DNA of 63,736 nt, the filler included, from Nemertoderma westbladi (Eukaryota > Animalia > Xenacoelomorpha), in NCBI GenBank assembly GCA_032718475.1. It is 4 parts of 4 records of this genome, joined end to end, with 100 filler letters (N's around TTAATTAATTAA, not from the genome) between each part and the next. Parts side by side here need not be neighbours in the genome. Positions count along the whole stretch, not along the records: positions 1 to 29,040 come from JAUCBJ010002413.1; 3 more parts are not named here. One strand, 5' to 3'. The translations under genes were made by a program, and so were the position numbers. Numbering within the stretch: the first letter of the stretch is position 1; every line of letters starts with the position of its first letter. The notes under the pieces are model-generated. The model was not told where the DNA came from. It worked only from the letters and a program-made list of their open reading frames with translations, and searched no databases. Positions 429 through 41,268 of the stretch are shown piece after piece.

Positions 429-2770
429 TATTGATTACGTCTTTCAGCGTGAGAGCCGAAAATGCTCTCTTTTCCCCCTTACCAGCCCAGTTGAATTTCT
501 TAGCTAAGGTGTTGTCGAACAAATGTTTCATCATCCGACGCGTGGTATCCTTAGCATTCGCTCCACCGATATTGCTAAGAGATTTAATCTGGTAAAAAAT
601 AAAAGTAAGAAAATTAAGTTTATAAGTTTGTATAAGTAATAGTTAGTGAGACTGAGAACTATGGAGTTGATGTAACCATCGAGCTTAACTACCGTATTTC
701 TTCGACTAAGAGCCTGGACGTTTAAATTCAAGAAAACAAGTTAAACAAATGAAATAATTCAAATAAAAACAGGACTACCGTTATTACAATGCAGCCTATT
801 ACAGCGGTACAACACCTCAGAGTTGGACAGGACACGGGCCGGTTTTTCACGGCCCGAGCCCGTTAATATATATTAATGATAAAATCGTGTGCTAGTGGCA
901 TCGCTCACTAATCGTGGCTCGCCCCACATTGTATTATTATTAAATGCCGGGGAGTTTATTCGGGGAAGGGGTTTAAGTTGCTAATTTGATGGTAAGGGGG
1001 GGTGGGGGGGGGGGGGGGTAGGTGGGGGGGATTAATAAAAACTTTAATATGACTTACCAAGTTTGATTTGAACTTGTCGTCATCATGTAATTGTTCTTCC
1101 AGCTCATTGACCTCTTCAATACGGCTCATGGGGAACTTTGGGATATAGCCTGATTCTGCTGCAGAGGAGTCGCCGTCTATGATTCTCTCAATATTAATAC
1201 CAAGTTCGACTTGTCGCTCCCCTTGCCTTTTCAGCTCCTGCTGAAGACACTCTAATTTGCTAAGAAGCTTCTTACCCAGAGCTAAAATTCAACAATTACA
1301 AATATTAATAAATATATATGAATATTTTTTAAGCCCCTCTTTTTTATTTTTAAGTCGGATTGAAATACGCCATGAAATAAAGTAACAGTATTCTAACTTG
1401 AATTGGTAACATTGTTTCAACGTATAATATTTAACACAAATACAATTATGTTCATTGTCGTTGAATTTTAACGTTGAGGAAACAGTAACATTTCAGAAAA
1501 ATTAAAACTAGTTATTGCAGTTGATTTGTTAACGTTACATAAACGCATAATATTCAACGCATACAGTTTAATGAATACAATACATACATTTAAATAACGC
1601 AAAATAAACTAGGCATCATGGTTAAAGTTCTTACATTGTATCAATATTAGTCCTTGATATAAAACTAAACTAGGAAACTAAAAGGCATGGTAGATTTTGT
1701 GGTAATTGTAAACTTGTAATAATGATGTATAAGGATGAACTTACACTCCATAATTAGCACGGGTGAGGTCGGATTATAATTGGCCAGATGTTGTTGTTGT
1801 TCAATGGGCGTCACGGCAATTATCTCAGCGTCTGATCCACCCCGAGTTCTTGGAGTGGTGTTTATACCTGTTGGTGGCGGTGTTGGAGGATCCGGTGCTC
1901 CAGGAAGTTCCATTTCACCATTAGTATCGTCGGATTCGCTATCGCTATCAAATCGTGGTGGGGGTCTATATCAAAATTAATATTAACGTTGATGTTACGG
2001 TAATAGAAAAATAGCATAAAAATTGATGAAAATGACGATTTAAAATGTTATGGGTGTGCACTGTGCAGTAGCCTCCTACTACAAGTAAAGACAAACATTT
2101 TGTTACATGCACTCTTAATGTTGAATACACATTGTATTTTCATATAGAATGTACCATAACTTTAAATTAAATTGAAAATTAAGTAGTTATATGTACAATT
2201 TATTTATAAAGTTTTATATATAAACTAAGTAGATATATATATATACAACAGAACATATAACCGTACTACCGGTAGTTAGGACTCCGGGAGGTTTAGACTA
2301 GGTTGAAGTGGGAGGAACAAAGACAGGCCTACCGGTATGGTAGGCCTATATATGATATCAGGATATAGGCAGACAACCAAATGGCTGAATGGTTCAGTAC
2401 CGCTAGCCTAATCATCTAACCTAACAGCTAACCTTGCATCACGTTTCCTTTTGCGATGATTGCCGGTAGTAGATTGTTGACCTCCTCCTTCGGACTCAAG
2501 CGCCCTATTGTTTTCAGCCCGTTTTTGGTATTTAATTACATCTCCATACGTGCAGCCTCTCCGTATGATAACAACTGGGTATAGGTCCCAATTCTTTTCT
2601 GGTTGGGTGTAATTTTTGATGGCATTCGATACATTTTTTGGAGGCCAATAGCATTCCGCAAGAGGTCGCTCATCCACATCATTTGTTTCGAGTATTCTAG
2701 TTAGCCATGTTTGTGGGACAGCGGCTAACGCATTATCCTCATCCACAAACTCGACAAGAGAATAATACAT
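429..2770 (-). CDS. Spliced DUF4806-type accessory gene of an EnSpm/CACTA-like transposon (exons 2770-2433, 1965-1745, 1281-1058, 588-429; last exon not located)
   Basis: The four exons join in frame at GT-AG sites. The N-terminus YSLVEF...VPQTWL...CYWPP and the C-terminal FPMSRIEEVNELEEQL...LSNIGG..KDTTRRMMKHLFDNTLAKKFNWAGKGEKRAFSALTL match my recollection of DUF4806 proteins. Confidence 0.85.
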
Positions 2771-3443
2771 TCAGTGTTTTGTTTATTATTATTACAGTAG
2801 AGTATTCAGGTCAGGTGATAGTTTCCCGTTTACCATTACCTACCGTTACCTGAATGTATACTGGTATATAGTATAGGTGTATACCGTAACTAATTAATAC
2901 ATTACCTGAACGCATACTGTATGTATACCGTACGGTACCGGTAACTAGGTCAAAAATTTTATATCGGTAGCCTACCGGTAGGCCTACTGCTTCTGCTACA
3001 ACAATCTGACAATGGTCCTTTACAGCCTTAACAATCAGACAATAGGCCTACAGGCGGACAAGATAAAATAAGAATGAAAATGCAGACAGACCAGCAGACA
3101 GATCTAAAATAAACTGATAAAAGCAGCCTCTGGTGTCTGGCCTCTCGGCCTAACCCCACGAACCCTCCATTTTTTCTTTAAAAAAATACCATGGTTTTGT
3201 TCAGCCTCTGGCTGCTGGTGGCTGGCAGGGGCAGCCTGGACCGGGCCCGCACATCCACACGGCACGACCAGAACTTCTCAATAAGCAAAAGGAAAAGGCT
3301 GAAAGGTGAAATGGCTAAGAAGAATTATATAGACCCGGTAGGGCCTACCGGTGCGGTGACCTGTAAAAGAGAAATAAATAAAAATGGCCCAAAAATATTC
3401 GGCAAACTCGTAAAGCAGCAAAGGTCACTAGTTTTCAACTAGG

Positions 3444-3719
3444 CTAGGCCTGTCTGCCTGTAGGCTTTAGGCAGCTAGGCCTACCACCGGTCCTGGGGCT
3501 GGAGCCATTGGTATTTCCATCATCTGAATGAAAAACTGGTACCGGTACTGGTACTATGATTGTCTCTGCATTTGTTTTGTCATTAGGGCTACCACTACCA
3601 GTAGTCGTACTACTGCTAGGCGTAATATCGGTAGACGATACAAACGCATTATCAATTATATTTTGCCATTCTTCATCCACGGCATTACTAAGTCTCCTCC
3701 TCTTTGTCCAATAAGACAT
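3444..3719 (-). pseudogene. Possible N-terminal remnant of the EnSpm-like transposase
   Basis: MSYWTKRRRLSNAVDEEW resembles the start of animal EnSpm-like transposases (from memory). It lies upstream of the DUF4806-type gene in the same orientation, and no catalytic region follows. Confidence 0.4.
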
Positions 3720-4232
3720 AACGCAACGGCCTGACGGTAGGCTAGCTAGAAAAGCCAGCAGGAAGCATATGCCAGTATAGTATGCAGTATGCGTACAAAA
3801 TACAACAGAATTCAACAGAGCTCTCTGCTCTGGCTGTCTGGCATAGCTCTGCAGCTCTGTACAGCTGTAGCTGGAGCTGCGCCGCTGAACTTCCGCACCA
3901 GTACAGTACTGCAGTACCGGTAGGCAGATAGACCTAAGTACTAAAGTATTGAAGTGACTGCAGACTGGTGAGCAACAAAAAGCAGAAATGCTGAAATGTG
4001 AACACAAGTACTGTTGCATATACTGATGTAGTAAGCAGCACATAACAGCATAAGGCAATAAGGGTATAAATAGAAGGCATGGCCTACTTTGCAAAATATG
4101 TAGTACATTTGGCTCTGCTATACAAGGTGATTTGATTTACCACATGTTGAGGTTGAATCTATAATGTTTAATATTTAACAGCAATTCAAACTACTGTAGT
4201 TATTGCAGTTGAAATGCTAAAATTGAATCAAA

Positions 4233-4990
4233 GTATAATATTTAACTCTTGCACACTGTGGAATTGTTGGTTGAATTGGTAACATTGTTTCAACGTATAA
4301 TATTTAACTCTTGCACACTGTGGAATTGTTGGTTGAATTGGTAACATTGTTTCAACGTATAATATTTAACTCTTGCACACTATGTAATTGTTGGTTGAAT
4401 TGGTAACATTGTTTCAACGTATAATATTTAACTCTTGCACACTGTGGAATTGTTGGTTGAATTGGTAACATTGTTTCAACGTATAATATTTAACTCTTGC
4501 ACACTGTGGAATTGTTGGTTGAATTGGTAACATTGTTTCAACGTATAATATTTAACTCTTGCACACTGTGGAATTGTTGGTTGAATTGGTAACATTGTTT
4601 CAACGTATAATATTTAACTCTTGCACACTGTGGAATTGTTGGTTGAATTGGTAACATTGTTTCAACGTATAATATTTAACTCTGGCACACTATGTAATTG
4701 TTGGTTGAATTGGTAACATTGTTTCAACGTATAATATTTAACTCTTGCACACTGTGGAATTGTTGGTTGAATTGGTAACATTGTATCAACGTATAATATT
4801 TAACTCTTGCACACTGTGGAATTGTTGGTTGAATTGGTAACATTGTTTCAACGTATAATATTTAACTCTTGCACACTGTGGAATTGTTGGTTGAATTGGT
4901 AACATTGTTTCAACGTATAATATTTAACTCTTGCACACTGTGGAATTGTTGGTTGAATTGGTAACATTGTATCAACGTATAATATTTAAC
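4233..4990. repeat. 62-bp tandem array, about 12 copies, subterminal in the EnSpm-like element
   Basis: Unit TTTAACTCTTGCACACTGTGGAATTGTTGGTTGAATTGGTAACATTGTTTCAACGTATAATA, near-identical copies. Confidence 0.97.
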
Positions 4991-5932
4991 AAAAATACAA
5001 TTATGTTCATAGTCGTTGAATTTTAACGTTGAGGAAACAGTAACATTTCAGAAAAATTAAAACTAGTTATTGCAGTTGATTTGTTAACGTTACACAAACG
5101 CATAATATTCAACGCATACAGAGTAAGTATTTTTGGTTTTATTATTAACAATATAATAACGTAATATAAATAACACAAGTAAAAATTTGGCATCATGGTT
5201 GAAGTTCTTACGTTGTATCAATGTTAGTCCTTGATATAAAACTAAAATAGGTATTTGTGGTTAAGTTCCTAACGTTGATGCAACATTTAAAGTTCAACTA
5301 AATAGCATGGTAGATTGTATGGTTGAATTGCTAAAGTTGCTATAACGTAATTTGCATAACGTTGGTTTGAGGCACAATTTGCAACTTCATATCAACGTAC
5401 ATAGAAGGTTTTAGTGGATTAAACTAATAATTTGTAATTTTGACAACCTTTATGCAACGTTGTTTCAACATTTACTCTGGGTTGAACTATACTACTAATA
5501 TTTTGTTTATTTTTCAACGTAACATCTACATTACAACACCGTTGAAAAAATACGCTAACCATTAATCAACGGTGTCAACCTTCTAACAACGTTGATTCAA
5601 CGTGTCCGTGTTGCCTGGGTAACGTGGTCTAACATTGACTGTAGCAAATTGGCCAGACCATGTCCTGTGCATCTTTGTGTGCAATAAATCTCTTAATCTG
5701 CACCACGCACCCCAAACCAAAGGAGCACAGAGGATTAATGAAAGGCAGAGGTATTAACAGGAAATTTGTGTTTTAAAAGTAATATATTTTTAGGTGTGGA
5801 GGCAACCAAATATGTAAAAATTATTAAAATATTAGTCGATAGTATTGATACTGAAATATTAATTTATAAGGTCAACACCTCAAATAAATTATTTAGCTAA
5901 TGATTCTAAAGAATATGATTAAATACTCCAGG

Positions 5933-7703
5933 CAAGGATGTTATTACGTTACGTTACGGTATCTTTTCAGGAATACAGTAGCTCAATATTTTTCCGTAAC
6001 GTAATAGCTTTTTCAATACCGTAACGTAATATTACTGTATATTTTTGCCGTAAACCGTAACGTAATAGCGTAATATTTGTTTTATCTACCAAGCAATCAT
6101 TTTGGACAAAAAAGTAAATCTTTCGACAAAAAAACTTTCACTTGAACGTTCTAGCTATTCAATATAACGTTAAATGCTTTTGGGTTTTGTTGGATAGTAC
6201 TAGATTGTGACAACAATCGAAAACAGGCGAAAACAAGCGAAAACAGTTGAAATGTAGGGAAAACAGACAAAAACAGTTAGATCGTTTAAAAATAATCATC
6301 CATGCATCCAGGTGAAAATAGATATTGAAGTTAACTTAGTGTAATAATAGATTTAAAATTTAGTGGCATTTATAATGTCGCTAACTTAAGATGACATTTT
6401 ACCCATAACCCATGTACAATAACACTGATTACCCGTTGATTATGGATTACTCCAGTGCGGCAGTAAGCCTACAGAGTAGAGTATTCAGTGAGTCAATTGT
6501 ACCGGCACCCGTACCGGCACCGATAGAAGAAGATGTGGAAGTACGAAGTTCCGGTATCTTCGCTTCCAGCGGTTTCGCCATTATCAGAACAAACAAAATC
6601 ATTTATTGCTGGAAATGAAATAGGCCTATGTGCTATGTATTTTACGTACCTAGTATCGTTCTTACAGACATGGAGTTCAACTTAGGCCTACTGTACTAGC
6701 TACTACTACAGTACTACTGTATAACAATCAATAAAGTGCATCTCTGCAATAATAATAAATTCAATATGGTACTTCCCAACCGGTACGGACACAGTAACTA
6801 CATCAGGTACCGGTACGGCAGTACGGGCACTGATATGAGCAGAGTTATTGTACATGGGTACGTCATCTTAAGTTAGCGACATTATAAATGCCACTAAATT
6901 TTAAATGTATTATTACACCTAGTTAACCTCAATTTCTATTTTCACCTGGATGCATGGATGATTATTTTTAAACGATCTAACTGTTTTCGACTGTTTTCTC
7001 TAAATTCCAACTGTTTTCGCTTGTTTTCGCCTGTTTTCGACTAGTACTCGATCTAGTACTATCCGGTTTTGTTTATCTGTACACGGTATCCTTATAGCCA
7101 GCTTCCTGGCTTCTCCAGTTATTTATGTTGAAGTTTTAATTAATAATTAATTTATAGTTAAATTAAGTTATAATTAAACATTAAGTTTTAATTAATGTTA
7201 AGCTAACTAGGGCTACTGACTGAACTATTTATACTGAGTCTCTGCTCTACCAGCTGTAGCCTATAACAACGCAGTATGCTGCAATGGTATAGATCATAGA
7301 TTTACAGGACAGTAGGTAGGTATGGTAGGCCTACCTACAGGGCTACCGCTACCTGTTTGTCTTATTATGACAACCTATTACAACACAAGCCAAGCCGTTC
7401 TACCAATTTAAAGTTATTTTTATGGTTAAGTTAATTTGCAATTTCAAAACATTGAAACTATAATTTTCTGATTTTCAGACAAAATTAGGATGAAACTTTA
7501 AATATCTCTTTGTGGTCCTATGGAATCTGAACCGGTTATTACGTTACGGTATTTTCGGTAATACGCAATTATTTTTTTCGGAATACAGTAACGTAATGTA
7601 ATTTGGAAATTATTCCGCAATGTAATATCGTAACGTAAAAAGTTCAGTTTTTCAACCGTAACGTAACGTAATACAGTAATGTAACGTAACGTAAACATCC
7701 TTG
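5933..7703. mobile_element. Non-autonomous hAT-like element
   Basis: TIRs CAAGGATGTT..TACGTTACGTTAC / GTAACGTAACGTAAACATCCTTG, with GTAAC subterminal repeats. The flanks ACTCCAGG and ACTCTCAGG look like a degenerate 8-bp TSD. Confidence 0.75.
6192..7064. mobile_element. MULE/foldback-type MITE nested in the hAT-like element
   Basis: About 220-bp imperfect TIRs starting GGATAGTACTAGAT. Perfect 9-bp TSD GGTTTTGTT at 6183-6191 and 7065-7073. Confidence 0.9.
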
Positions 7704-8027
7704 ACTCTCAGGCAATCATTTTGCTAGAAAAATAAATAATAAGCAAGCTGGCTTATTAGTCACTTTACACTAGTAGTGCCGGCCTTGTCTATGTCCTATA
7801 GATGTAATTACGCGTTGCCTAATAGTGATGAGATTTGGACTGGTTCCAACTAATAGCCAATAGTTAGTATGCCAACGAAGGAGGGAGCTATAGCTGGAGA
7901 CGGGGCATTTTAATAAATTAATTACGTTTAGATCAATTAAAAACACATTTCTTAAAGCAAATCACTTGAACTAATTAAAAACTATAATGAAATGGGGTAC
8001 GGGGATTACAGCTGTATAACTTTTAAG

Positions 8028-9055
8028 CAGAGACAGAATACGATACGATACGATACGACGATACGATACGATACGATACAAACCAATGTTTACGATACGA
8101 TATGATACGATACGACGATACGATACGATACGATACGATACGATACAAACCAATGTTTACGATACGATACGATACGATACGATACAAACCAATGTTTAAG
8201 ATACGATACGATACTCTTGAAATTTTGAGGAATTACGATACGATTCGAAATACGAAACAATTTCGTATGTTTTTCCTATCGTATTTTATCTAAGAGTTGA
8301 TAAAATATTGGGATTTTATATTATTACACTTAGAAAATCATATAAATATCTATATAATAGGCAAATATATTTTATTTCAATGTTCCAGTCCAGTATGCTT
8401 GCTACAGCAATAGTGTGTCTACTGGCTACAACATCCCATATGGACGTTATGCAACACGGCCCAATAGTAGGCGTTTCCATATTACCCTGCCACTTTATGT
8501 ATACTGTACTGCTTTACCTATATACCTACTGCCGTTATATATAGAATGATGACTGTGCATTATTACCAATATTGAAAAAAAATTCAAAACTTCAATTTCC
8601 AAGTCAAACTAATACTAGAATAAAACTATGTTTTATTTCAAAATAAATGTATTATTTTTTATTCTCTCACTAGAAAGACGTCAAGGCCTTGTACAGTAGG
8701 CGCGATTAGAGTTATCCTCGTTCAACTGTAATTAGATTATATTTTATCATTTTTCTACGATTAACGATCCTCATTTGTTACAATTTCATTGACATGGGTA
8801 ATAAAACTGTAAGCTGAAACCTAATTTATTCACATGTAAAGAAATAAGTGGTGTGATCTCTGGTTTGTCTGTTAAAAACATGAATATTTACAAAATAATA
8901 AGATAAGAAAATCCGATACGAAATACGAAAAATATTTTTTCGTATTTTACGATACAAAGTCAATTTTTATAATCCGATACGAAATTCGATACGTATAAAA
9001 TACTGCGATACGAAATACGAAAATCCGTTTACGTATCGTATCGTATCCGTCCCTT
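8028..9055. mobile_element. hAT-type MITE with a (CGATA)n subterminal microsatellite
   Basis: Imperfect TIRs CAGAGACAGAATACGATACG / CGTATCGTATCCGTCCCTT. Perfect 8-bp TSD CTTTTAAG at 8020-8027 and 9056-9063. Confidence 0.88.
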
Positions 9056-9646
9056 CTTTTAAGTATAATTATTTATATCTTATAATAATAATTACAATTA
9101 ATTTCCAATAATTATCCAATAATAGACAATATAATACAACAATTATAGAACATTTATTTTTTTTTAAATTATACGATTATAATTTTAGCTAGTTTCCATA
9201 GCAATATGCGAAAATTAACAATAAACTAAATAAATTTTAGTTTGAAAAGGTTTCCTTCCGTATATTTATTAAATACCAAACCTTATACTAACTACGGTAT
9301 GTAGCACAAATACTGGATGTTCAATATTTATGTTCTAGAACATATTTATTTTGTTCTAGAACATTTTATTTAAACTAACTAGTTGTCGCTACTTTTTAAT
9401 CTCCTAGAACAAGTTCGTTATCAATTAAGGTTCTAGAACACTTTGTTTTACTGGAACATTAAAAATAAATTAAATATTATATTGATCGTTTATACAAACC
9501 GAATAAATAAAAACAGCTAGTAAATAATTACTGGCTACGCTGACTATCTAATAACAATTACTGGCGCTGTAATACTTATTAGTACTTTAGCAATTTAGCG
9601 GCAATTTACTTTATTTTATCTTTTAGATTCAATAATCCCCCTAACA

Positions 9647-10505
9647 ATGGCGCCGATCCAGGACCTCAAAATGATCCCGGGTACCGAGGAGGTTGTCTTT
9701 GTGTCTTTCAACCTCCCCTGTATCATAAACTCAACAACTCTCTACGAAAAGGAAGATCTACCAGGATCCGGAGGTTCTACCGATTACTGGAGAGTCGCGG
9801 TTTCTTCGGACGGGAACCGCGTTGCCTCGGGAAGCTGGATTGTGGGGGGGTCGATGATTGTCTGGGAGCGGGAAGCGACCGGTTGGAGGGTCGTAGTGAA
9901 GGTACCGTGGGAGGTGTTAGTGGTTGGTGGGTGGGGGGCGGGTCCATGGAGGGAGGGAATAGATATAAATCCCTCCAACCGGGACGTCATTGCAATATGT
10001 GGGTACAAAGGGGGGATTTCTATTATATCAATAACTGGTAGGAAATATAAGGTTACGAACTGGGTGGGGCATTCTGGGTTGGTTAACTGTATTCGGTTCA
10101 ACTCGAACGGGTCCCGGTTGGCCAGCTGTTCGGATGATAGAACAGTAAAAGTTTGGGTGACCGGAACCCGGGAGATGTTGTACCAATACCGGGGGCACAG
10201 TGGGAGGGTCTACAGTCTGGGTTGGGGTCCGGATGGGAAGTCAGTGGTGTCGGTAGGTGACGGAGGAGGGATCCATCGCTTCGTTGTTGGTACAGGGGAG
10301 ACCTTGTGGAGACAGGAAGCAACTCCTGAGGTCCGGAAGATCGTATTGAGTCCGAACGGATCCAGAATCGCTGCTGTTGGGTGGAACCCCGGGTTGATTT
10401 ATATTCTAAATTCTGTAACTGGGGAGGTTATCAACCGGATTGAAGGAACGGGGAGCGGCATCGGTGCTGTCGATTTCTGTAAAGATGACCGCCATATCAT
10501 TACAG
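9647..10505 (+). CDS. Coding exon 1 of the WD40-Roc-COR-CARD gene: WD40 beta-propeller, 6-7 blades
   Basis: WD repeats such as GHSGLVNCIRFNSNGSRLASCSDDRTVKVW and GHSGRVYSLGWGPDGKSVVSVGDGGGI. The exon ends mid-blade (HIIT-G) at the donor AG|GTAAT, phase 1. Confidence 0.92.
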
Positions 10506-11120
10506 GTAATTAATTAATAGACCTCTTTTATTAAAACACGTTAAATTAATTAATTAGGCCTAGGGTATAATTCATTACCGTACCACGTACCATAGTAAGT
10601 AATAATCATTATAACACTTAAATGAATTAATTACATTAATTATTATTATTTAATTTTATTTTATTTAATTAATAATTTACTTACCGATATGATGCGGATT
10701 AACTGAACATTACCTTCACTGCCTCCTGCCAATATTGGGTACCATGGGAACGAAATTTAAATTGTGTAATATCAGAATATAGACGACCGGAACTGAAAAT
10801 CAGAAGTTATTACAACATAGTCCCTGTAGTCGGATAGTTTTAGGTGCAGTTTGGTTCCGGTAAATGTAACATAAAAATAAACTAATAAACCAGCAATTAG
10901 CTTAATAATATTATGTATTCAGTTACCCTGTTAGGTTGTTTGTTATTGGTTTGTATCAAAGGCGTTTTAACCAACTGGTAGTTCTACTTAAATAAACAAA
11001 CTATAATGGTACCAATAGGCGTACCGGTACTGCAATGCAGTAAAGTAACTGTACAGAGAATACAACCGGTAATGTATAATAAAAACTTTCATTATTAGGT
11101 CTGCCATACAGTCCCATTAC

Positions 11121-11608
11121 TTAGGCATACAACAAAGGCTTATTATAATATATACTACCTTGCTCGCCATAGTTAGTTAGTTAGGCATACAACAAAGGCT
11201 TATTATAATATATACCACCTTATTGCTCGCCATAGTTAGTTAGTTAGGCATACAACAAAGGCTTATTATAATATATACCACCTTGCTCGCCATAGTTAGT
11301 TAGTTAGGCATACAACAAATGCTTATTATAATATATACCACCTTGCTCGCCATAGTTAGTTAGTTAGGCATACAACAAAGGCTTATTATAATATATACCA
11401 CCTTGCTCGCCATAGTTAGTTAGTTAGGCATACAACAAAGGCTTATTATAATATATACCACCTTGCTCGCCATAGTTAGTTAGTTAGGCATACAACAAAT
11501 GCTTATTATAATATATACCACCTTGCTCGCCATAGTTAGTTAGTTAGGCATACAACAAAGGCTTATTATAATATATTCCACCTTGCTCGCCATAGTTAGT
11601 TAGTTAGG
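11121..11608. repeat. 60-bp tandem array, about 8 copies
   Basis: Unit TTAGGCATACAACAAAGGCTTATTATAATATATACCACCTTGCTCGCCATAGTTAGTTAG. It lies just beyond the 3' end of the adjacent LINE fragment. Confidence 0.96.
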
Positions 11609-11742
11609 TAGCGCCTGGAGAGCTATATTTCAAATTATTACGAATTATGTCACAAATTAAATATCACAAATTCAATATCCAGTATGTTACAGGAAAACGT
11701 AGAAAATCAAAATAATATCAAAATAATATTAATCAAAATCAT

Positions 11743-12870
11743 TTAAACAATTCTAGTAATTCGTAAATATATGTACAGAGGGTATGAGTCACCTTTAAAA
11801 AGAGTATTCAAGCGCCCGGCAAAATAGAGAGTCTGGTATTTTAAACATAAATCTTTTGAGAGTGGGCACACACATAAAACGTGCAACTCATCTTGTACAG
11901 AGGTGTTGTCACAGATACAAGTTCTGTCCAATCGTGGTATCCTGGACCACCGGCCGGTTTCTATACGCAGTCTATGACTCATTAATCTGACTCGGGTAAA
12001 AGCAGCGCGGTGATAATCCGGAATATACGGTTTGGCAGATTTGTATATCGGGCATACAGACAAGTCGCTGTTTAAAACAGAACGGTATGTAAAAAACTTT
12101 GTAGCGGATTCTGGTTTGTTTATAACACGGGATTTTACTATACTGCTAGTGAATAAATTGAACGAGGCTTAGTACAACAAATTATAACCCGGGCTATTTG
12201 CCGATTTGCAAAGTTGGAATGCCTGATTAATCGGTGTATCGGGATCGCTATGAAGTATTTTCATATAAAATTGCTTCCTACATTTAATTATACGTTCTAG
12301 AATGGTTGGTAGCCCTAATTCGATCAGACAGATGTCGGTAGGAGTTTGATATCTAACACCTGCTAATGTCTTTACCATACGTACGTAAAATTAAAATTTC
12401 TCGATAATTTTAAAGTCGTTAGTCAACCAGGACTCTGAAGCGTACAGTAAAGAGGATAACACGGCCGATTCTAGGACTTGCCTTTTAAAAGCAAACGGCA
12501 TGGTCTGGTTAACTGCACAAAATATACCGTATTTATTAGCGGTTTCTTCCAGTTTTGGTTCTAAAAGTTTAAACATATATAAGATATAAGTATAAATATA
12601 TAAGATTTAATTGTTCCGTCATCTGTGAAAATTGACCCCAAATAATTATAATAAGCACAATAATTTATCACCATACCGTTAGATATTATAGGTGTACGGT
12701 CAGCAGAATTACCATTTATAACCAAAAATTTCGTCTTTTTCTTAATAATTTACATTCCGGATATATTACAAAATTCAACTAACTTATCTACTTTTTTTCT
12801 GAAGGCTACCCCTTGATGCTGCTATAGTAATACTGTATCGTCCATTAGTAATAATATGTGTATTGCACCA
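11743..12870 (-). mobile_element. 5'-truncated, frameshifted non-LTR retrotransposon (ORF2 3' half; clade uncertain, RTE-X/L2-like)
   Basis: RT catalytic motif HILLLMDDTVLL near 12840, then SSLLYASESW and the C-terminal RLMSHRLRIETGRW..RTCIC..QDELHVLCVCP. Confidence 0.88.
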
Positions 12871-15800
12871 TACAAAGTGTTATAAGAAGGGACACCCCCA
12901 ACCATCACCCCACTTTATTTTTACAAATCTTTATCATACTATATTTAACTGGAGCTACATAGAATTTTCTATTTTGATTTTATAGACGTTTGGCACGTTT
13001 CTTTTGCGATATCGCCCTCATTGCATCACGGCCATCCCCCCCCCCCCCCCCCCCCCCCTTCCTCCCAAAGCTTGTAAAATATCCCCTTTTTGGAGGACGT
13101 TTTTGTTTTTAGATGTAGTCCAATACAAAATGCCGGCTAATATTTTTTATTGTTTGTTCCAAATTCATTAACATACTAATCATAATTTTACGCTGCCTAA
13201 AACTAATCTACTTGGGGGAAAAGCTTCCAGTTTCTGGCATAATTAATACAACTAGGACTGCACCGGTACCAGATTTGCCTACATAATGTAGTACGCATAT
13301 AGATTACATCAGTATGTATTATAATAAATGTTTACTAGCTGTGTGTGACTGGTGTAATGTGTCTTATCGGTCTGGTCACCTAATGTTTCATATTATTATT
13401 TGATGGTAAATTCAAATTGTATTGGGGGGGGGGGGGGGGGGGGGGGGTTGGACCGGTTTTTTTTCAAATTGATTTTAAACTGTATTAGTTTATTTTAAGC
13501 AATACACCGATATTTGTCACCCATATAAAAACATTACAATCTTCTGGTTTACGAATATGGCGACGAAATGCTCGAGAACCTACTCAAACGATCACAATTT
13601 GAATAAAAGTGGATGGGAGTAGTGTGGATCAAATGTGTCTACGTCAGAATACTTCAATTTTAACCGCCAAAGAAACGTATTGTGTTGGATCAAATGGGTG
13701 GATGGAGGAAGTACAGACAATTTTTATTCGAACCATCCCAGCATATATAACATCTCCACCTTTTGGAAACAAACTATTTTATGCCAAAAATTAAAAAAAA
13801 TCTAAAAAATGGGTCAATAAATGTAAAGTTTTCAATGATTACTGGCTACGGCTTGTTTAAACATTGAATTAGCAGTAAATATCGCACATTATCCTGCCCA
13901 GTTTCAGTGCAGTACAGGTAGGTCTACCTACACCAATGCCAGGGATACTCCATTCAATTTATTAATTATCTACGGTAGTTCTGTAGTTAATTAGTATTGA
14001 GCACTGTAAGCGGTATACGGAAACGTAGGATAATATTATCGAGCTAGACCCATTTAACCCAATATAGAAGAACGTAATTTTCTGCTCTTGTATCTGTAAT
14101 TGTACGTTTGCATTAGTCAATTAATATTGCCAATTACGTTATTTTATGTTCCCCGCTATGGACCCCTAATAGTGAACAGATCGGACTGGATACCTGGTGT
14201 AACATGGATTTCGAGCAGCCTTCAATAAATGCCCCTAATTGAGTTTTTCCTGAGATTCGCATTCAGGGTTGTGTGTTCATTTTACCAAGAATCTCAATGA
14301 AAATAGGGAGGAGTGGGATCGTTAATTAATTCCATGCCAATAGTATGATGTAGCATCCGTATCTGGAGATATCTAGTTTCCCTGTGTATCCTGATTAAAT
14401 TAGTACTTCCTATTCCGATAACAAATATTAATATTATAGCTGAGGGACCTGTCATTCATAATGTTCAATCATAATGTAAAAATCATATTTATAGCCATTA
14501 TATAAGGACGCTTAAAACTGTAAATCGATACTTTTTGTAATCGATTTTTCGCACCTTCTGTAGGAAACACACAAAAATACACTCTTCCAAGATTCTAATT
14601 TAGAAATGCAATAGTCACAACATAATTATTCCCTACCCCTTTCCTCACCACAATACCCCTTTGCCATCTACAACCAATATCACGGCCTTCACCCATCCGG
14701 GCACCTTTAATTCACCTACAAATTGTAATATTACCAGCTTCCCTGCAAGATACCACTGTCCATGTCCAATAAGGGAGCTCCCTATTCAAATACATCCCTT
14801 CCTTCTCATTGGAGCTTCCTATGCAAATTCATTCTCTTCCTTCTCATTGGAGCTTCCTATGCAAACACATCCATTCCTTCTTATTGTATTAACCTTTACA
14901 GTTAATAACAAGGAATATTTCTGTATCCAATAACTATATGAGATAAACGTGACAGTAAACGTTTATTGATCAGTTTGTAACAAGTCAATATCAATTATGT
15001 TTAACATGTGTTTTAACGTAATCTTTGCACAGGAAAGACAGCTTCTAAATAGGTGATAATTAAGGGTCAACTTCACATCTACCCCAGATACCGGGTTTAA
15101 AAGGGCCAGTTTTGGATGTTTTAAACAGTCAGTAAAAACAGGCCTGGTAGATGGCAGCCTCGGCAGCTAATCTTGGCTCTGCTTCTTGGTATCCGACCTA
15201 AACTGCGCCATTACTTTGATACCATCAGGGGAGGGGACCTAGTGTTTGGATGTGTAGGTAAGGCTCCCGCTGAGAACTGAGCTTTGGCCGACCAGCCCTG
15301 GAGCGCTAGCGCACTCTGCCCGCTCCGCTGGCTATTCAGTCCGTCCCAGGATCGATTGTTTAGCCATGAGGACAAAGTGGCAGCATCTTCCTGGGTTTTT
15401 TTTGTCTCAGGTCAGATTACGGTAGAGCTTGCACTCTTTGCCCGTAAACTTAGTGAAGCGACCAGCGACCTCGGTTAATCCTCTAAGTCATAGGACAAAT
15501 TAGCAGCTAACCATCTGCATCCAATCGGTCCCACCCCAATTTGGACACAGAAGGTAACATAGTGTTTTGCACTATTGCCAAGTTTCCAATAGCGTGAAGC
15601 CGCACCAAGTTTATATATTTATCAGTCTTTTCCGACTTTTTTTCCACATTTAGTCTTTATGACTAACTATGACTTTTATCAGACGTTTTTTGTATTACAT
15701 TCTTCACAGTATTTTAGCATCAATAAACGACTAAAATATTGTATTTTATTTACTATTTTTCGGTTATAATTTTTTTGGATTGTAGTATTTTTCGAGGCTA

Positions 15801-16592
15801 TACTTTGGATCCTAATGGACGCAAAGCACCCCTCACCCGGTATTTTCTTTTTCCCTCTTCTCAGAGGTTTTTCAATGGTGTTTGTTACATTACACTATTT
15901 TTATACCAGAAGCAAGCAATATAGCATCTGGAGAGAACAGAAATCGCTGAGTTTTAGTGCTATCTGGGAAGGGTTGTGGATGTCCGTAAATAACAAGTCA
16001 TTGAAGGACCGTGTATTACTGCGAGCTATTTTCCAGTCAGTCTTGCTACCGAGAAACAAATTACACTTTTACGATTACACTTTTTATTTACCGATTACCA
16101 TTATTTACATTCAAATTTTAAGCCCACCACCAACACTGTCAAAAAAAGTTTGTTTCACAATCAAGGTTCAAATCGAGTCAACTTAAACTTTATAAAAAAA
16201 CAATTTTAATTGGTAGTTCTTCTGGTCCCATATTTTTCACCGAGTCTACCTGCGTTCGAATTTATATGTGTGCAATCCAATCTGATCAAGGATTGTTTTT
16301 ATAGCTTTGGAGACTGTTGGTACAAATCGTATAAAACATTAAGTATCATCTGTAAGATTGGGTGCTTCTGTTAGTTCTGGGTGTGGAGGTTTTTATCAAC
16401 CATATCTAGCGGGTTGTTGTTTATATTAACATAACAGTATATCAGTGTCTTCGGCTCAGAAATAGTTCAAGCAACTTATCTCTATAATTTTAACCATCCT
16501 ATTGACCCGTTTATTATTGCTACTGTATAATACGTAATATTGGATGTCAACTCAGTGGAAAGACAGCTTAACAATAATTATACTTTATACAG

Positions 16593-19500
16593 GAGATGTT
16601 GGCGGCACAATTACATTAATGGATACGTTCCGTGAAGGTCAAACTGAAACAAAGAAAAGTATCAAACAGGTGGAAAGTATATTGGAGAAAGCTGAAGAAT
16701 TAAAGGAAATTGTTGAGTATATCGGAAGGGTTGGTCCCATAAATAAACCACTCCAGGGTAAGATAAATAATATAATTAAGTCTACTGTTGATGTTCTTTC
16801 TTATAAGGAAAAACAACTTTACTTTAGACTGGATGCAGATATTTCTGAGTTAACAACACAGAATCTGGTTAGTATTTGGGGTTTAAATCAAGTTTCAACA
16901 ATAGAAATTGTTAATAAATTCAGAGACTTGGGACTTCTGTCTACAAGTGAATTAAATTCACTGGAAGTTCCAAAATTTTTAATTAATTATATAAAAGAAC
17001 AAAAACTGCCGATAGAGATACTGGCGAGAGGCCCAGAAGCATTGGCTGCTTATAAAGCAGCTCTTTCTAAAGGGACTACATGGATACTGAAAACCCGGTT
17101 AATGTTAGTCGGACAAGAGAGGGCTGGTAAAACAAGTTTGAAGAAGGCCCTTATTGGTCAACCATTTGATATTAATGAACAAATAACAGATGGTATTGAT
17201 TCATCTGCTAACTGTATTATAAATACCGAACAAAACACAGATTGGACCAACTTACGAGATAAAAATAAAGAAAACTTGGAGAAAGATGTCAATGACTTTG
17301 TTTCTAAACAAATAGCAAAAACTGTTCTAGAAAGTAAACAAGTTGCAGATAATAAAAATGATGATTCTGGAACTTCTGGAAAGGTTGTTGGAAGTGCGAC
17401 TCCCGTAGTTTCAACCTCTTCATCAGCAGCTAATGTTAAACCTAAAGAGATTCCTATTACAGTTGCAAGTGGAAGTGCTGATAAAGTTCCAACCATTAGT
17501 TTGTGGAGGAGGTTAGTTTCCAAAATTACACGCAATAAAGAACAGATCAGTACTTCTGAAACACAAATCCCTCCAAACATTTCTAAAGGAGTAGAAGATA
17601 TACTCACATCTGGTAAACCTCAAGATATTCTGGCTAAATTTATTGAGGAAGACAGTCGCTTTTCTCTACAGATAATCGATTTTGGTGGCCAATGTATTTA
17701 TTATACAACCCATCAGATATTTTTGAGTAGACGTGCTATTTACATAATTGTATTTGATTTGACACAAGATCTCGACAAAACAGCTGATGTTATTGTTAGA
17801 GCTGATGACACCAACATAAAAGTTTATGGCGAGATGACCAATATTGAATTTATAGATTTTTGGTTAAGGAGTATTTACTCATTTGGTGCGAATTTTGATG
17901 AAAAAACATCAAATGTTGTCGGCCCACCAGTATTTATAGTAGGAACTCATAAAGGTAGTTTAGATGCTGATTCTAGAACTCAATCAACTTTAGCAACTAA
18001 TATTTTAAAATCCATTAACAACTATATAGATAAAACTCACCTTACAAGTAATTTAGTAAAGGAATTTTATGCATTGGAAAATAATAAAGAAATTTTGAGT
18101 GATAGCGCTGAAGAACTGGAGAATTTGCAGCAAGATATTGCCAAGGAAATGATTAGGTTCAAAGAGGAAATACCCCTACAATATTTAAAATTTGAACAAC
18201 TTGTGTCTCAATTAATAAACGATGGCAAAGTTTATATTAACATTGACGAATTAAAAGTAAAGTTAAATGCTATTGATGTAGAAATGAATGACATTGGTTT
18301 GAAAACAATGTTAGAATTTTACCACGATTTGGGTACAATAATTTACTTTGATGATGAATCTCTAAGAGACACTGTTATAATGAGCCCAGAATGGTTGAGT
18401 GGAATGTTTACCAAAATAATAACTGTAAAAGACAAAATTAAGAAACAACACTTTACTTTCTGGAAGGACCTGGACGACAATGGTATATTACATGAAGAAC
18501 TCCTTGATTATCTGTGGGAAGGCGTTCTTGATAAAAAACAATTTATGTTGAATATTCTAGAACGTTTTGATTTACTATGTGAAAGAGTTTTGCCTCAGAT
18601 TAAAGGAACTTTAAACCAAAATATAAAGCGATCCTATTACGTTCCGTGCAGACTGAAACCAGTAAATATAAATCCGTTTTTACCAAAATATTCCAGCTTG
18701 GAATTTTATATAATATTCGTTAGTTTCTTACCAGAAAGTTTGTACTACCGTTTAATTAAGAGAACTATAGATTTGTCCTACATTGTAGGAGATGGAGTAA
18801 TTCAACCTAAACTATACCACAGAGTTGCTCAAATATTTTTAGATTGTAATCATGAAATTATCTTGGAAAGATCTGCGAATTCGTTGCATCGGGTCAAAGT
18901 TCAGATCATTAGAACTGAAGAGGTTGATACAGAAAGCATTTCAACTGAATGTAAAAGGAGTGCGGATCCACAGCTGGTCAACAAAGTGAAGTGTTATCTT
19001 AATAATTCATTGCAGGAATTCCTTAAACAAATTCAAATAAAAAACATTTCGTTTAGTTTTCAGATAAAATGTCAATGTAATTCAAAATGCGAACAGCACA
19101 ATGAAATTAACTGTAAAGAAGAAATTTGTTTCCATTTTATTAAAATTGATGAAAATATTTCAGATAATAAAGTCAAATGTAAGTTTCATAAACATATGGA
19201 AAGCAACTTAATAAGAGAAAAATATACAGGTGATTTAAGTTCACATTGGAAGAAAATAGCGTCTAAGGAGAATGAACTTCTACATAAACTAGAAATATTA
19301 GAACTTATAATTTTCTTAGAAGCTAAGCGAACTTTGTCTCGGGATGTTTTATCTATAATGAACTCGAAACCAAATGTATTCAGTAAAATAAAGACTTTAT
19401 TGGAGGCAATAAAATGGGGTACAGAAAATAATTACGAAATATTTATTGAAGGATTAAAGGAAACATATCAAACTCATATAGTAAATATTTTAGAGAATAA

Positions 19501-19807
19501 AACAACAGATGATGATAAAAAGTTTCCGTTGATACTAACTAAATATAAGTTTGTTTTAGTTAATAGAATCGAACCAAACTTGGTAATAAAATTACTTTGT
19601 AGGAAACAAGTGTTTAGGGATTCTATAGCTGAATCAATCAATAGTAAAGAATCCACAGTGGCAAAGAATAATGAACTGGTCAACGCGATAATTAGAAGGT
19701 CATACAACGATTTTCTTTCATTCTGTCAATGTCTGAGAGAAACAAATCAGGTTCAAATAGCTGATATCCTGACTACAGCTGTACATAATTTAGATGATTT
19801 AGTCTAA
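16593..19807 (+). CDS. Coding exon 2: end of the last WD blade, winged-helix-like segment, Roc GTPase, COR, two CARD-like domains (Roco family)
   Basis: Acceptor TTTATACAG| at 16592. Pre-Roc PIEILARGPEALAAYKAAL; G1 GQERAGKTS; G2 TDGI; G3 DFGGQ..YYTTHQIFL; G4 VGTHK. COR motifs LEFYHDLGTIIYF, VIMSPEWL, ILERFDL and YYVPCRL. The CARD ends match F...L.ET.Q..I..IL twice. Confidence 0.93.
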
Positions 19808-20489: not shown

Positions 20490-23400
20490 AGCTCATAAAC
20501 TCTATCCACCAACCCATCGAAACCATAAATTCTATCCACAAACCCATCGGAACCATAAACTCTATCCACCAACCCATCGGAACCATAAACTCTATCCACC
20601 AACCCATCGGAACCATAAACTCTATCCACCAACCCATCGGAACCATAAACTCTATCCACCAACCCATCGGAACCATAAACTCTATCCACCAACCCATCGG
20701 AACCATAAACTCTACCCAGTAACCCATCGGAACCCTAAACTCTTCCCACCAACCCATCAGAACCATAAACTCTATCCACCAACCCATCGGAACCATAAAC
20801 TCTATCCACCAACCCAACGGAACCATAAACTCTATCCACCAACCCATCGGAACCATAAACTCTATCCACCAACCCATCGGAACCATAAACTCTATCCACC
20901 AACCCATCGGAACCATAAACTCTATCCACCAACCCATCGGAACCATAAACTCTACCCAGTAACCCATCGGAACCCTAAACTCTTCCCACCAACCCATCAG
21001 AACCATAAACTCTATCCACCAACCCATCGGAACCATAAACTCTATCCACCAACCCATCGGAACCATAAACTCTATCCACCAACCCATCGGAACCATAAAC
21101 TCTATCCACCAACCCATCAGAACCATAAACTCTATTCACCAACCCATCGGAACCATAAACTCTATCCAGTAACCCATCGGAACCATAAACTCTATCCACC
21201 AACCCATCGGAACTATAATCTCTATCCACCAACCCATCAGAACCATAAACTCTATTCACCAACCCATCGGAACCATAAGCTCTATTCACCAACCCATCGG
21301 AATCAGAAACTCTATCCAGTGACCCATCAGAACCATAAAATATATTTCACCAACACAATGGAACCCTAAACTATATCCACCAACCCATCAGAACCTTAAA
21401 CTCTATCCAATAACCCATCAGAGCCATAAACTCTATTCACCAACCCATCGGAACCATAAATTCTATCCAGTAACCCATCGGAACCATAAACTCTTTTCAC
21501 CAACCCATCGGAATCATAAACTCTATCCAGTGACCCATCAGAACCATAAACTCTATTCCACCAACACAATGGAACCCTAAACTATATCCACCAACCCATC
21601 AGAACCTTAAACTCTATCCAGTAACCCATCAGAACCATAAACTCTATTCACCAACCCATCGGAACCATAAACTCTTTCCAGTAACCCATCGGAACCATAA
21701 ACTCTATCCACCAACCCATCAGAACCATAAACACTATCCAGCAACCCATCGGAACCATAAACTCTATCCCGTAACCCATCGGAAGCCTAAACTCTATCCA
21801 CCAACCCATCAGAACCATAAACTCTATCCAGTTACCCATCGGAACCCTAAACTCTATTCACCAACCCATCAGAACCATAAACTCTATTCACCAATCCATC
21901 GGAACCATAAACTCTATACACAAACCCATCAGAACCATAAACTCTATTCACCAACCCATCGGAACCATAAACTCTATCCACCAACCCATCGGGAACCATA
22001 AACTCTATCCACCAACCCATCGGACTCATAAACTCTGTCCAGTAACCTATCGGAACCATAAACTCTATCCACCAACCTATCGGAACCATAACCTCTCTCC
22101 ACCAACCCATCGGAACCATAAACTCTATCCACCAACCCATCGGAACCATAAACTATATCCACCAACCCATCGGACTCATAAACTCTGTCCAGTAATCCAT
22201 CGGAACCATAAACTCTATCCACCAACCCATTGGAACCATAACTTCTATCCACCAACCCATCGGACTCATAAACTCTATCCACCAACCCATCGGAACCATA
22301 ACCTCTATCCACCAACCCATCGGACTCATAAACTCTGTCCAGTAATCCATCGGAACTATAAACTCTATCCACCAACCCATCGGAACCATAACTTCTATCC
22401 ACCAATCCATCGGACTCATAAACTATGTCCATTAATCCATCGGAACCATAAACTCTATCCACCAACCCATCGGAACCATAACCTCTATCCACCAATCCAT
22501 CGGATTCATAAAACTCTGCCCAGTAACACATCGGAACCATAAACTCTATCCACCAACCCATCGGAACCATAACTTCTATCCACCAACCCATCGAACTCAT
22601 ACACTCTATCCACCAACCCATCGGAACCATAACCTCTATCCACCAACCCATCGGACTCATAAACTCTGTCCAGTAATCCATCTGAACCATAAACTCTATC
22701 CACCAACCCATCGGAACCATAACTTCTATCCACCAACCCATCGGACTCATACACTCTATCCACCAACCCATCGGAACCATAAGCTCTATCCAGTAACCCA
22801 TCGGACTCATAAACTCTGTCCAGTAATCCATCGGAACCATAAACTCTATCCACCAACCCATCGGAACCATAACTTCTATATACCAACCCATCGGACTCAT
22901 AAACTCTATCCACCAACCCATCGGAACCATAACTTCTATCCACCAACCCATCGGAACCATAACCTCTATCCACCAACCCATCCGACTTATAACCTCTGTC
23001 CAGTAATCCATCGGAACCATAAACTCTATCCACCAACCCATCGGAACCATAACTTCTATCCACCAACCCATCGGACTCATACACTCTATCCGCCAACCCA
23101 TCGGAACCATAACCTCTATCCACCAACCCATCGGACTCATAAACTCTGTCCAGTAATCCATCGGAACCATAAACTCTATCCACCAACCCATCGGAACCAT
23201 AACTTCTATCTACCAACCCATCGGACTCATAAACTCTATCCACCAACCCATCAGAACCATAAACTCTATCCACCAACCCATCGGAACCATAACTTCTATC
23301 CACCAACCCATCGGACTCATAAACTCTATCCACCAACCCATCGGAACCATAACCTCTATCAACCAACCCATCGGACTCATAAACTCTATCCACCAACCCA

Positions 23401-24700
23401 TCGGAACCATAACCTCTATCCAACAACCCATCGGACTCATAAACTCTGTCCAGTAATCCATCGGAACCATAAACTCCATCCACCAACCCATCGGAACCAT
23501 AACTTCCATCCACCAACCCATCGGACTCATAAACTCTCTATCACCAACCCCATCGGAACCATAAACTCTATCAACCAACCCATCGGAACCATAAGCTCTA
23601 TCCAGTAACCCATCGGACTCATAAACTCTATCCACCAACCCATCGGACTCATAAACTCTGTCCAGTATTCCATCGGAACAATATCCTCTATCCACCAACC
23701 CATCGGAACCATAAACTCTATCCACCAACCCATCGGAACGATAACTTCTATCCACCAACCCATCGGACTCATAAACTCTATCCACCAACCTATCGGAACC
23801 ATATCCTCTATCCACTAACCCATCGGAACAATAACCTCTATCCACCAAACCATCGGGAATATAAACTCTATCCACCAAACCATCGGAACTATTAACTCTA
23901 TCCACCAACCCATCGGACTCATAAATTCTGTCCAGTAATCCATCGGAACCATAACCGCTATCCACCAACCCATCGGAACCATAAACTCTATCCACCAACC
24001 CATCGGAACCATAACTTCTATCCACCAACCCATCGGACTCATAACCTATATCCAGCAAACCATCGGAACCATATACTCTATCCACCAACCCATCGGATCC
24101 ATAAACTTTATCCACCAACCCATCGGAACCATAAACTCTATCCACCAACCCATCGGAACCATAACCTCTATCCACCAACCCATCGGAACCATAAACTCTT
24201 TCCACCAACCCATCGGAACCATAACCTCTATCCACCAACCCATCGGAACCATAAACTCTATCCACCAACCCATCGGAACCATAACCTCTATCCACCAACC
24301 CATCGGAACCATAAAATCTATCCACCAACCCATCGGACTGATAAACTCTATCCACCAACCCATCGGAACCATAACCTCTATCCACCAACCCATCGGAACC
24401 ATAACCTCTATCCACCAACCCATCGGGAACCATAAACTCTATCCATCAAACCATCGGAACCATAAACTCTATCCACCAACCCATCGGACTCATAAACTCT
24501 GTCCAGTAATCCATCGGAACCATAACCTCTATCCACCAACCCATCGGAACCATAAACTATATCCACCAACCCATCCGAACCATAACCTCTATCCACCAAA
24601 AAATCGGAACCATAAACTCTGTCCACTAACCCATCGGAACCATAAACTCTGTCCACTAACCCATCGGAACCATAAACTCTGTCCACTAAACCATCGGAGT
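20490..24700. repeat. 30-bp satellite, about 140 copies, with sub-arrays and higher-order structure
   Basis: Consensus AACCATAAACTCTATCCACCAACCCATCGG. It accounts for all the repetitive ORFs in this interval. Confidence 0.98.
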
Positions 24701-41220: not shown

Positions 41221-41268
41221 GTAGATTTTAGTTTATTCTGCCAGTGGCTTCATAAACAATAACCAACC

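What the first reader, a model, noticed from the sequence alone, without database searches (positions are those of the whole stretch)
9647..19807. One gene hidden in two ORFs: WD40-Roc-COR-CARD-CARD, a candidate Roco-driven apoptosome or immune receptor
Seen: donor ACA G|GT at 10505 and acceptor AG|GA GAT at 16593 are both phase 1. The join reads DDRHIITG-DVGGTITLMD, which completes a WD40 blade exactly across a 6.1-kb intron, giving about 1357 aa. Known: Roc-COR is the GTPase and dimerisation core of LRRK2, DAPK1 and MFHAS1, while WD40 sensor plus CARD effector is the Apaf-1 design. Inference: this is a sensor-switch-effector protein like an NLR or Apaf-1, but in reversed order, with a GTPase in place of NB-ARC and no kinase. 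I do not know of a characterised protein with this architecture.
Basis: partly seen in the sequence, partly recalled or inferred. Interest (0 to 1): 0.92.

Follow-up and report, generated by a model that had tools for sequence, protein, structure and literature searches.

The report
Propeller-Roco GTPase with tandem CARDs
Two open reading frames 6 kb apart in an invertebrate-type animal genome very likely splice into one 1,357-residue protein that joins a WD40 propeller, an LRRK2-type GTP switch and two cell-death adaptor (CARD) domains; it likely works as an intracellular immune or death receptor, a design already predicted for related proteins, although this exact combination was not found elsewhere and nothing about it has been tested.

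Summary
The splice sites and domains are as described. Joining 9647-10505 to 16593-19807 gives 1,357 aa without stops. Acceptor 16593 is the best WD40-blade completion of 1,329 in-phase AG sites downstream. No RNA check was possible. Pfam confirms WD40, Roc, COR-A and two CARDs. The protein belongs to a large modular animal Roco clade: 51 of 142 representatives carry a death-fold domain, 5 a caspase, none WD40. A mussel protein (KAL3889163.1) has a likely NHL-type propeller, Roc-COR and two CARDs, on a separate branch. WD40-Roc-TIR is catalogued in prokaryotes and CARD-bearing Rocos in Trichoplax. This scan also noted bacterial WD40-Roc-COR and an invertebrate Roc-COR-CARD on other DNA. Best reading: a sensor-switch-adaptor receptor that recruits a CARD caspase or adaptor; a ring-shaped apoptosome is unlikely. 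Verdict: new variant of a known, untested kind; interest 0.45.

The parts
9610..9646 (+). Pyrimidine-rich tract and AG (9625-9626) 20 nt upstream of the ATG: candidate acceptor of a 5' leader intron, or of an unseen phase-1 upstream exon
   Evidence: Sequence; no convincing upstream coding exon among 25 strong donors in 1-9600; untested
9647..10505 (+). Coding exon 1: WD40 propeller, about six and a half blades (seven blades after joining is read by eye)
   Evidence: Pfam WD40 E 3e-23; own blade HMM finds 4 clear blades and a weak last one; GC3 0.58
10506..16592 (+). GT-AG intron, 6,087 nt, phase 1; holds tandem arrays at 11117-11608 (60 bp x 8.1) and 14774-14886
   Evidence: no significant WD40 or Roco remnant inside; splicing inferred
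16593..19807 (+). Coding exon 2, one open frame to the stop at 19805-19807
   Evidence: GC3 0.25
16593..16624 (+). Start of exon 2: likely the missing strand of the last WD40 blade
   Evidence: Rank 1 of 1,329 acceptors
16763..17002 (+). Likely STAND-type (NB-ARC/MalT/Apaf-1-like) winged-helix domain without its MHD-type motif (joined residues 344-423), after about 40 helical residues
   Evidence: ESM Atlas features; 5-sequence profile aligns over its length, 2 of 1,000 shuffles reach the score. No hit in Pfam, PDB or homologue search; not found at E<=5 in a six-frame scan
17006..18100 (+). Roc GTPase: P-loop 17111-17134, G3 17678-17692, G4 17942-17956 (no Asp); insert of about 140 aa between G2 and G3; end approximate
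18179..18577 (+). COR-A
   Evidence: Pfam E 1.1e-13, 51.8 bits over cut-off 35.3
18635..19210 (+). Likely COR-B with a Cys/His cluster at its end (bounds approximate)
   Evidence: No direct Pfam hit; homologous to the region that scores weakly as COR-B in relatives; two Cys invariant in 11 aligned rows
19247..19498 (+). CARD 1
   Evidence: Pfam CARD E 2.2e-4, 21.6 bits, model 1-84 of 85
19538..19774 (+). CARD 2
   Evidence: Pfam CARD E 1e-5, 25.9 bits; best solved relative is the CED-3 CARD, E 0.002; procaspase-9 CARD E 1.4

Best explanation
The two ORFs very likely splice into one kinase-less animal Roco protein (WD40, likely winged helix, Roc, COR, CARD, CARD) that likely acts as an intracellular immune or death receptor: the propeller would bind a microbial or damage signal, the Roc-COR nucleotide switch would then change shape, and the freed tandem CARDs would recruit a CARD-bearing initiator caspase or adaptor. 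Shown: splice signals, open frames, domains, intact G1 and G3 motifs, membership of a modular animal Roco clade. Inferred: the splice (about 0.9), ligand sensing by the propeller, GTP cycling, the resting state (a COR-linked dimer with GDP, by analogy to the Chlorobium Roco) and the partner. Clustering would have to come from the tandem CARDs or from COR dimers, not from an AAA+ wheel. The gene likely arose by domain shuffling in its own lineage; the winged helix would be a leftover of a STAND-type donor.
For: Join and chance test. Domains. Relatives keep Roc-COR and swap the ends: of the 142 newly listed representatives, 51 have CARD, Death or DED, 13 TIR, 5 a caspase domain, others HEPN, NACHT, Macro, GT4, OTU, Bcl-2 (cut-offs E 1e-4 to 1e-5). 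Six tree rows of one branch share an N-terminal domain that scores weakly as NHL/SGL propeller, with CARD-CARD, Death-Death, TIR or HEPN behind, so the layout propeller-switch-effector exists in single annotated proteins. A tree that holds the query with four of them is rejected (p-AU 5e-78, 29 rows), so the layout likely arose twice. NB-ARC-winged helix-Roc-COR exists in P0040. The same logic is predicted for prokaryotic AP-GTPases (PMC8195603) and brown algal Rocos (PMC11378527).
Against: No expression or function data. No relative shares the WD40 exon or the linker; best identity is 38% and the branch is long, 1.2-1.3, so conservation of the fusion cannot be shown. GTP monomerises the bacterial Roco, the opposite of what a GTP-driven platform needs. 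G4 lacks the guanine-binding Asp, though 56 of 147 relatives with a scored motif also lack it and G4-G5 vary in Rocos (PMC6337361). CARD1 is under the Pfam cut-off. The exons differ strongly in GC3 (0.58 and 0.25). The census set was chosen by similarity to Roc-COR and holds many fragments.
Confidence: 0.55

Rival explanations
1. One gene as modelled, but a constitutive scaffold or trafficking GTPase (LRRK2- or MFHAS1-like): the propeller binds a fixed cellular partner and the CARDs tune signalling or act as decoys, with no sensing of non-self and no caspase activation.
For: Characterised animal Rocos have varied, largely non-receptor roles (PMC6337361 passages); the WD40 blades are divergent from each other, not a hypervariable array; no paralogue in the window.
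Against: Relatives are dominated by death-fold, caspase, TIR and HEPN partners and expand per lineage; the CARD's best solved match is a caspase CARD.
Confidence: 0.25
2. A recent shuffling product that is weakly functional or decaying.
For: No orthologue found; long branch; winged helix without its motif; G4 without Asp.
Against: A 3.2-kb frame at 32% GC with no stop; G1, G3 and the Cys cluster kept although best identity to any relative is 38%, which points to long purifying selection.
Confidence: 0.1
3. The ORFs are not joined as proposed: exon 1 belongs to another WD40 gene, or exon 2 takes another first exon or starts at its own Met at 16619.
For: No RNA evidence; GC3 and CpG contrast between exons; weak absolute blade score; no relative of this clade with N-terminal WD40 (0 of 142 by Pfam).
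Against: Exon 1 breaks inside a blade, and the best completion of 1,329 sites lies at the start of the Roco frame; no other WD40 exon in the window.
Confidence: 0.1

Closest known systems
Sinanodonta woodiana KAL3889163.1 (P0195; uncharacterised, 1,190 aa)
   Same: N-terminal likely beta-propeller, Roc with long insert, COR, two C-terminal CARDs, no kinase
   Different: Propeller is NHL/six-bladed-like (direct Pfam hit only E 0.11; stronger by homology to NHL-scoring relatives), not WD40; short linker with no match to the query's; separate branch
Prokaryotic AP-GTPase (Roc)-COR counter-invader proteins, including BetaPropeller+AP-GTPase+TIR (PMC8195603)
   Same: Repeat sensor, Roc-COR, variable C-terminal effector in that order; predicted immune role
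   Different: Prokaryotic; effector TIR, caspase or phosphoesterase rather than CARD (0 occurrences of COR+CARD in that data file); canonical Rocos have G1-G3 spacing of about 49 aa against 189 here, so the core is of the animal clade, not a recent transfer
Trichoplax Roco repertoire (PMC4104024) and mollusc/anemone Roc-COR-TIR/Death proteins (PMC9334734, PMC5094078)
   Same: Animal kinase-less Rocos with CARD, Death, TIR and repeat domains
   Different: No WD40-Roc-COR-CARD named in the passages read; figures not visible
Neuralized-Roc-COR-Death-TIR proteins (Ptychodera, Lineus, molluscs) and echinoderm Roco expansions
   Same: Nearest sequences (up to 38% over the aligned core); same supported clade; share the G4 variant
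   Different: Different N- and C-terminal domains
Apaf-1/CED-4 and tandem-CARD receptors NOD2, RIG-I (features recalled)
   Same: WD40 sensor, nucleotide switch, CARD output; likely winged helix; tandem CARD
   Different: No NB-ARC/NACHT or helicase; reversed order; no AAA+ ring expected
DAPK1, MFHAS1, LRRK2
   Same: Roc-COR core (LRRK2 chains E 5e-6); DAPK1 ends in a death-fold domain
   Different: No kinase, no LRR; WD40 is N-terminal, whereas LRRK2's is C-terminal

Membership tests
Roco family | Roc G-domain with G1-G3 motifs | tested here: met
   Pfam Roc 47.9 bits over cut-off 27; G1 and G3 intact
Roco family | COR directly after Roc | tested here: met
   COR-A 51.8 bits over 35.3; COR-B only by homology
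Roco family | GTP binding, hydrolysis and nucleotide-dependent monomer-dimer cycle | not testable with these tools
   G4 lacks Asp; needs biochemistry
Animal long-insert Roco clade with death-fold partners (grouping made here) | Long G1-G3 spacing and placement among animal rows | tested here: met
   189 aa against median 176 (n=145) and 49 for canonical Rocos (n=68); inside a 65-row clade, support 99, and a 13-row clade, support 99
LRRK/DAPK kinase Rocos | Protein kinase domain | tested here: not met
   No kinase hit in either ORF
MFHAS1-type Roco | N-terminal LRR | tested here: not met
   No LRR hit
Apaf-1/NLR (STAND) | NB-ARC or NACHT ATPase | tested here: not met
   No hit at E<=1; not a member, works-like claim only
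Apaf-1/NLR (STAND) | Winged-helix domain of the STAND module | tested here: inconclusive
   For. Against or blank:
Apaf-1/NLR (STAND) | Ligand-induced oligomer that activates a caspase or adaptor | not testable with these tools
   Needs cell and biochemical assays
WD40 propeller | Seven complete blades | tested here: inconclusive
   WD40 certain; 4-5 blades scored, the rest by eye; single-sequence model pLDDT 38
CARD (death fold) | Full-length match to the CARD profile, twice | tested here: met
   CARD2 over cut-off; CARD1 full length but 2.3 bits under

The most novel reading that the evidence does not exclude
An Apaf-1/NLR-like receptor whose STAND ATPase was replaced by a Roc-COR GTPase, with the STAND winged helix left as a trace of the swap. 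It would be one member of an unrecognised third class of animal intracellular receptors: invertebrate Rocos that have repeatedly and independently joined propeller sensors to CARD, Death, TIR, HEPN or caspase outputs. A GTP switch would then gate caspase recruitment directly, giving a kinase-free readout of the LRRK2-type switch.
Probability: 0.25. Interest if true: 0.75.

Novelty: new variant of a known kind. Interest (0 to 1): 0.45.

Why it matters
How Roc-COR passes a nucleotide change to its neighbours is still debated for LRRK2. A kinase-less Roco with a CARD output offers a simple readout (CARD clustering, caspase cleavage). For invertebrate immunity, the wider result matters more than this one gene: a large Roco clade shuffles sensors and death or immune effectors the way NLRs do, and none of the papers found here tests a member. 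The limits: the design was predicted before, this gene has no known orthologue or RNA support, and a near-equivalent sits unannotated in a mussel genome.

Tried and rejected
RNA check: no RNA holder listed; no evidence either way. No genome held, so paralogues outside the window, taxon and upstream exons could not be examined. Structure of exon 1 from a single sequence: pLDDT 38.5, unusable. Linker from a single sequence: best model pLDDT 61.5 made of long helices, four of five models about 40; Foldseek gave nothing at E<=0.001; neither supports nor refutes the winged helix. Linker homologue search: none of 1,095 candidates; pairwise tests against STAND proteins not significant (104 of 500 shuffles for P0040); a 2-sequence profile aligned but was not significant. 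A second Atlas look at the winged helix alone and a complex prediction of exon 1 with the start of exon 2 were not available. Search for longer relatives of the WD40 exon gave only generic WD40 proteins, 23-37% identity, in the 120 of 591 listed; Apaf-1 ranks high among solved structures (E 7e-28), but this is summed over many repeats and was not taken as kinship. My blade HMM missed a known degenerate WD40 (P0058) among relatives, so absence of WD40 rests on Pfam, not on it. Rejected: recent transfer from bacterial WD40-Roc-TIR genes (animal-type insert and tree position); orthology with the mussel protein; G4 change as a sign of decay peculiar to this gene (shared by nearest relatives); a wheel-shaped apoptosome.
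Full report
OBSERVATION. The window looks like animal DNA with introns, tandem repeats and a retrotransposon; no whole genome is held. Two + strand frames lie at 9599-10513 (304 aa) and 16538-19807 (1,089 aa). The donor (10505/10506) and acceptor (16592/16593) are both phase 1, and the join from ATG 9647 gives 1,357 aa without a stop across a 6,087-nt intron. To test chance I built a position matrix for the last 11 residues of a WD40 blade from 935 repeats of unrelated proteins and scored all 1,329 phase-1 AG sites downstream that have no early stop. Site 16593 ranks first (1.2 against -5.7 for the next), and first of 165 up to 16700. Since that site is also the start of the Roco frame, the join is well supported. 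The absolute score is low against canonical repeats (1st percentile 9.4), and a whole-blade HMM gains only about 2 bits. No RNA holder was listed, so splicing remains an inference (about 0.9). A second acceptor-like site lies 20 nt before the ATG; no convincing upstream coding exon was found among 25 strong donors in 1-9600. Exon 1 has GC3 0.58 like the neighbouring receptor-kinase exons (0.60-0.64), exon 2 has 0.25 and lower CpG; I cannot explain this beyond different origin or methylation, both untested.

ANATOMY. Pfam gives WD40 (E 3e-23), Roc (2e-12), COR-A (1e-13) and CARD twice. Alone, CARD2 passes the curated cut-off and CARD1 covers the whole model but falls 2.3 bits short. The best solved match of the CARD pair is CED-3 (E 0.002). 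Roc keeps G1 and G3; the G1-G3 distance is 189 aa, against a median of 176 in 145 scored sequences of the close set and 49 in 68 canonical Rocos; G4 lacks Asp, as in 56 of 147 relatives with a scored motif, including the nearest ones. No kinase, LRR, NB-ARC or NACHT was found. I recalled a likeness to the Apaf-1 winged helix and tested it. For: ESM Atlas features give unnamed clusters at 0.96, an 'archaeal ATPase family' cluster at 0.95, WHD_MalT at 0.90 and HTH_77 at 0.88, with low shared-feature counts of 120-168; a profile of five STAND winged helices from stored proteins has its only hit on ORF 2 at residues 76-155, and 2 of 1,000 shuffles reach the score. Against: no Pfam, PDB or homologue hit, pairwise tests not significant, not found at E<=5 among 1,911 six-frame peptides, and an uninformative model. 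I rate it likely, about 0.65. One relative, P0040, has NB-ARC, winged helix, Roc, COR in a row, which shows that such a neighbour arrangement can arise.

RELATIVES. ORF 2 finds 186 proteins in one search and 6,129 representatives at E<=0.001 in another, of which 150 were listed. The named top hits are uncharacterised proteins of hemichordates, nemerteans, molluscs, echinoderms, cnidarians and amphioxus, up to 38% identical over the core. I scanned all 142 newly listed representatives with Pfam: 51 carry CARD, Death or DED (5 CARD, 3 of them C-terminal), 13 TIR, 5 caspase, and others HEPN, NACHT, Macro, GT4, OTU, Bcl-2, ankyrin, NHL, FN3 or SH2; none WD40. Many are fragments. Among the 120 listed, WD40-type families appear only in two LRR-Roc-COR-kinase proteins. 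The nearest architecture is Sinanodonta woodiana KAL3889163.1: Roc-COR-CARD-CARD behind a 230-residue domain that is homologous (E 1e-26 to 1e-33) to N-termini scoring as NHL or SGL propellers (direct hit only E 0.11). Its branch holds the same N-terminus with Death-Death, TIR or HEPN instead. In a 168-row FastTree (217 of 262 relatives had enough coverage; 12 canonical rows kept as outgroup) the query is a long branch in a 65-row clade with Neuralized-Roc-COR-Death-TIR proteins and echinoderm expansions. In a 29-row IQ-TREE subset chosen by me after seeing that tree, holding the query with four of the propeller proteins is rejected (p-AU 5e-78). Propeller-Roc-COR-CARD-CARD therefore likely arose twice. 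No paralogue lies in the window.

MECHANISM. Most likely (0.55) a sensor-switch-adaptor receptor. The propeller would bind a ligand; Roc-COR would change state on nucleotide exchange; the tandem CARDs would then recruit a CARD caspase or adaptor, as tandem CARDs of NOD2 and RIG-I do (recalled). The bacterial Roco is dimeric with GDP and monomeric with GTP (PMC5714945, abstract), so a GTP-built wheel like the apoptosome is not expected; clustering would come from CARD-CARD contacts. Rivals: constitutive scaffold (0.25), decaying shuffle product (0.1), wrong gene model (0.1).

LITERATURE. Nine full-text searches of open PubMed Central and bioRxiv papers listed no paper on an animal WD40-Roc-COR-CARD protein; subscription papers are not covered. 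Seen: PMC8195603 (passages, section 15, 12 of 13 supplements searched, file 6 searched again) names AP-GTPases beside STANDs as apoptotic switches coupled to LRR, WD or TPR repeats and lists prokaryotic BetaPropeller+AP-GTPase+TIR proteins. PMC4104024 (passages): at least 17 Trichoplax Rocos with CARD, death, TPR and LRR domains. PMC11378527 (passages and section 10; supplement listed, not read): about forty domain combinations in animals, WD40 mentioned among N-terminal repeats, Rocos as candidate immune receptors; its Figure 2 may already show this combination and could not be seen. PMC9334734 and PMC5094078 (passages): Roc-COR with TIR or Death in Aplysia and anemones. PMC6337361 (passages): G4-G5 vary in Rocos. 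Earlier notes of this scan describe bacterial and archaeal WD40-Roc-COR proteins and an invertebrate Roc-COR-CARD on other DNA; none matches this sequence.

VERDICT. A real and well-spotted gene model; a Roco by membership, NLR/Apaf-1-like by analogy only. The exact build is new in these searches, the design is not. New variant of a known kind; interest 0.45, or 0.75 if it proves to be a GTP-gated caspase-recruiting receptor derived by an ATPase-for-GTPase swap (probability 0.25).

Noticed in passing
window 47591-50480 (+): LRR-FN3-transmembrane exon followed by a tyrosine-kinase exon (Pfam E 2e-19 and 1e-46); the kinase's catalytic-loop and DFG-type motifs look altered in the translation, so it may be a pseudokinase receptor; an in-frame 15-bp repeat at 48484-48710.
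   Followed up: partly
window 40078-43933 (+): Two long ORFs, the second with reverse transcriptase (E 2e-24): likely a non-LTR retrotransposon, cut by an N gap at 43886.
   Followed up: partly
window 20494-24698: 30-bp tandem repeat, about 140 copies, with extreme GC skew, starting 0.7 kb after the stop codon; gives long spurious ORFs.
   Followed up: partly
window 956-1285 (-): Weak DUF4806 match (E 1e-4), with further short frames to about 2770: perhaps a transposon-linked gene on the minus strand.
   Followed up: partly
proteins P0195, P0197, P0213, P0228, P0237, P0260: One branch (two members named Sinanodonta woodiana) keeps a likely propeller plus Roc-COR and swaps the C-terminal effector (CARD-CARD, Death-Death, TIR, HEPN): a good system for testing Rocos as NLR equivalents.
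   Followed up: partly
proteins P0167, P0142, P0014, P0130: Striking fusions in the same family: Bcl-2-Roc-COR-caspase (Owenia), Roc-COR-caspase (Lingula), CARD-RIG-I helicase-Roc-COR-Death (Amphiura), DED-Macro-Roc-COR-Death (Anneissia); gene models not checked.
   Followed up: no
proteins P0003-P0011, P0123-P0128: A conserved Neuralized-Roc-COR-Death-TIR group across a hemichordate, a nemertean and molluscs, with a shared G4 motif lacking Asp.
   Followed up: partly
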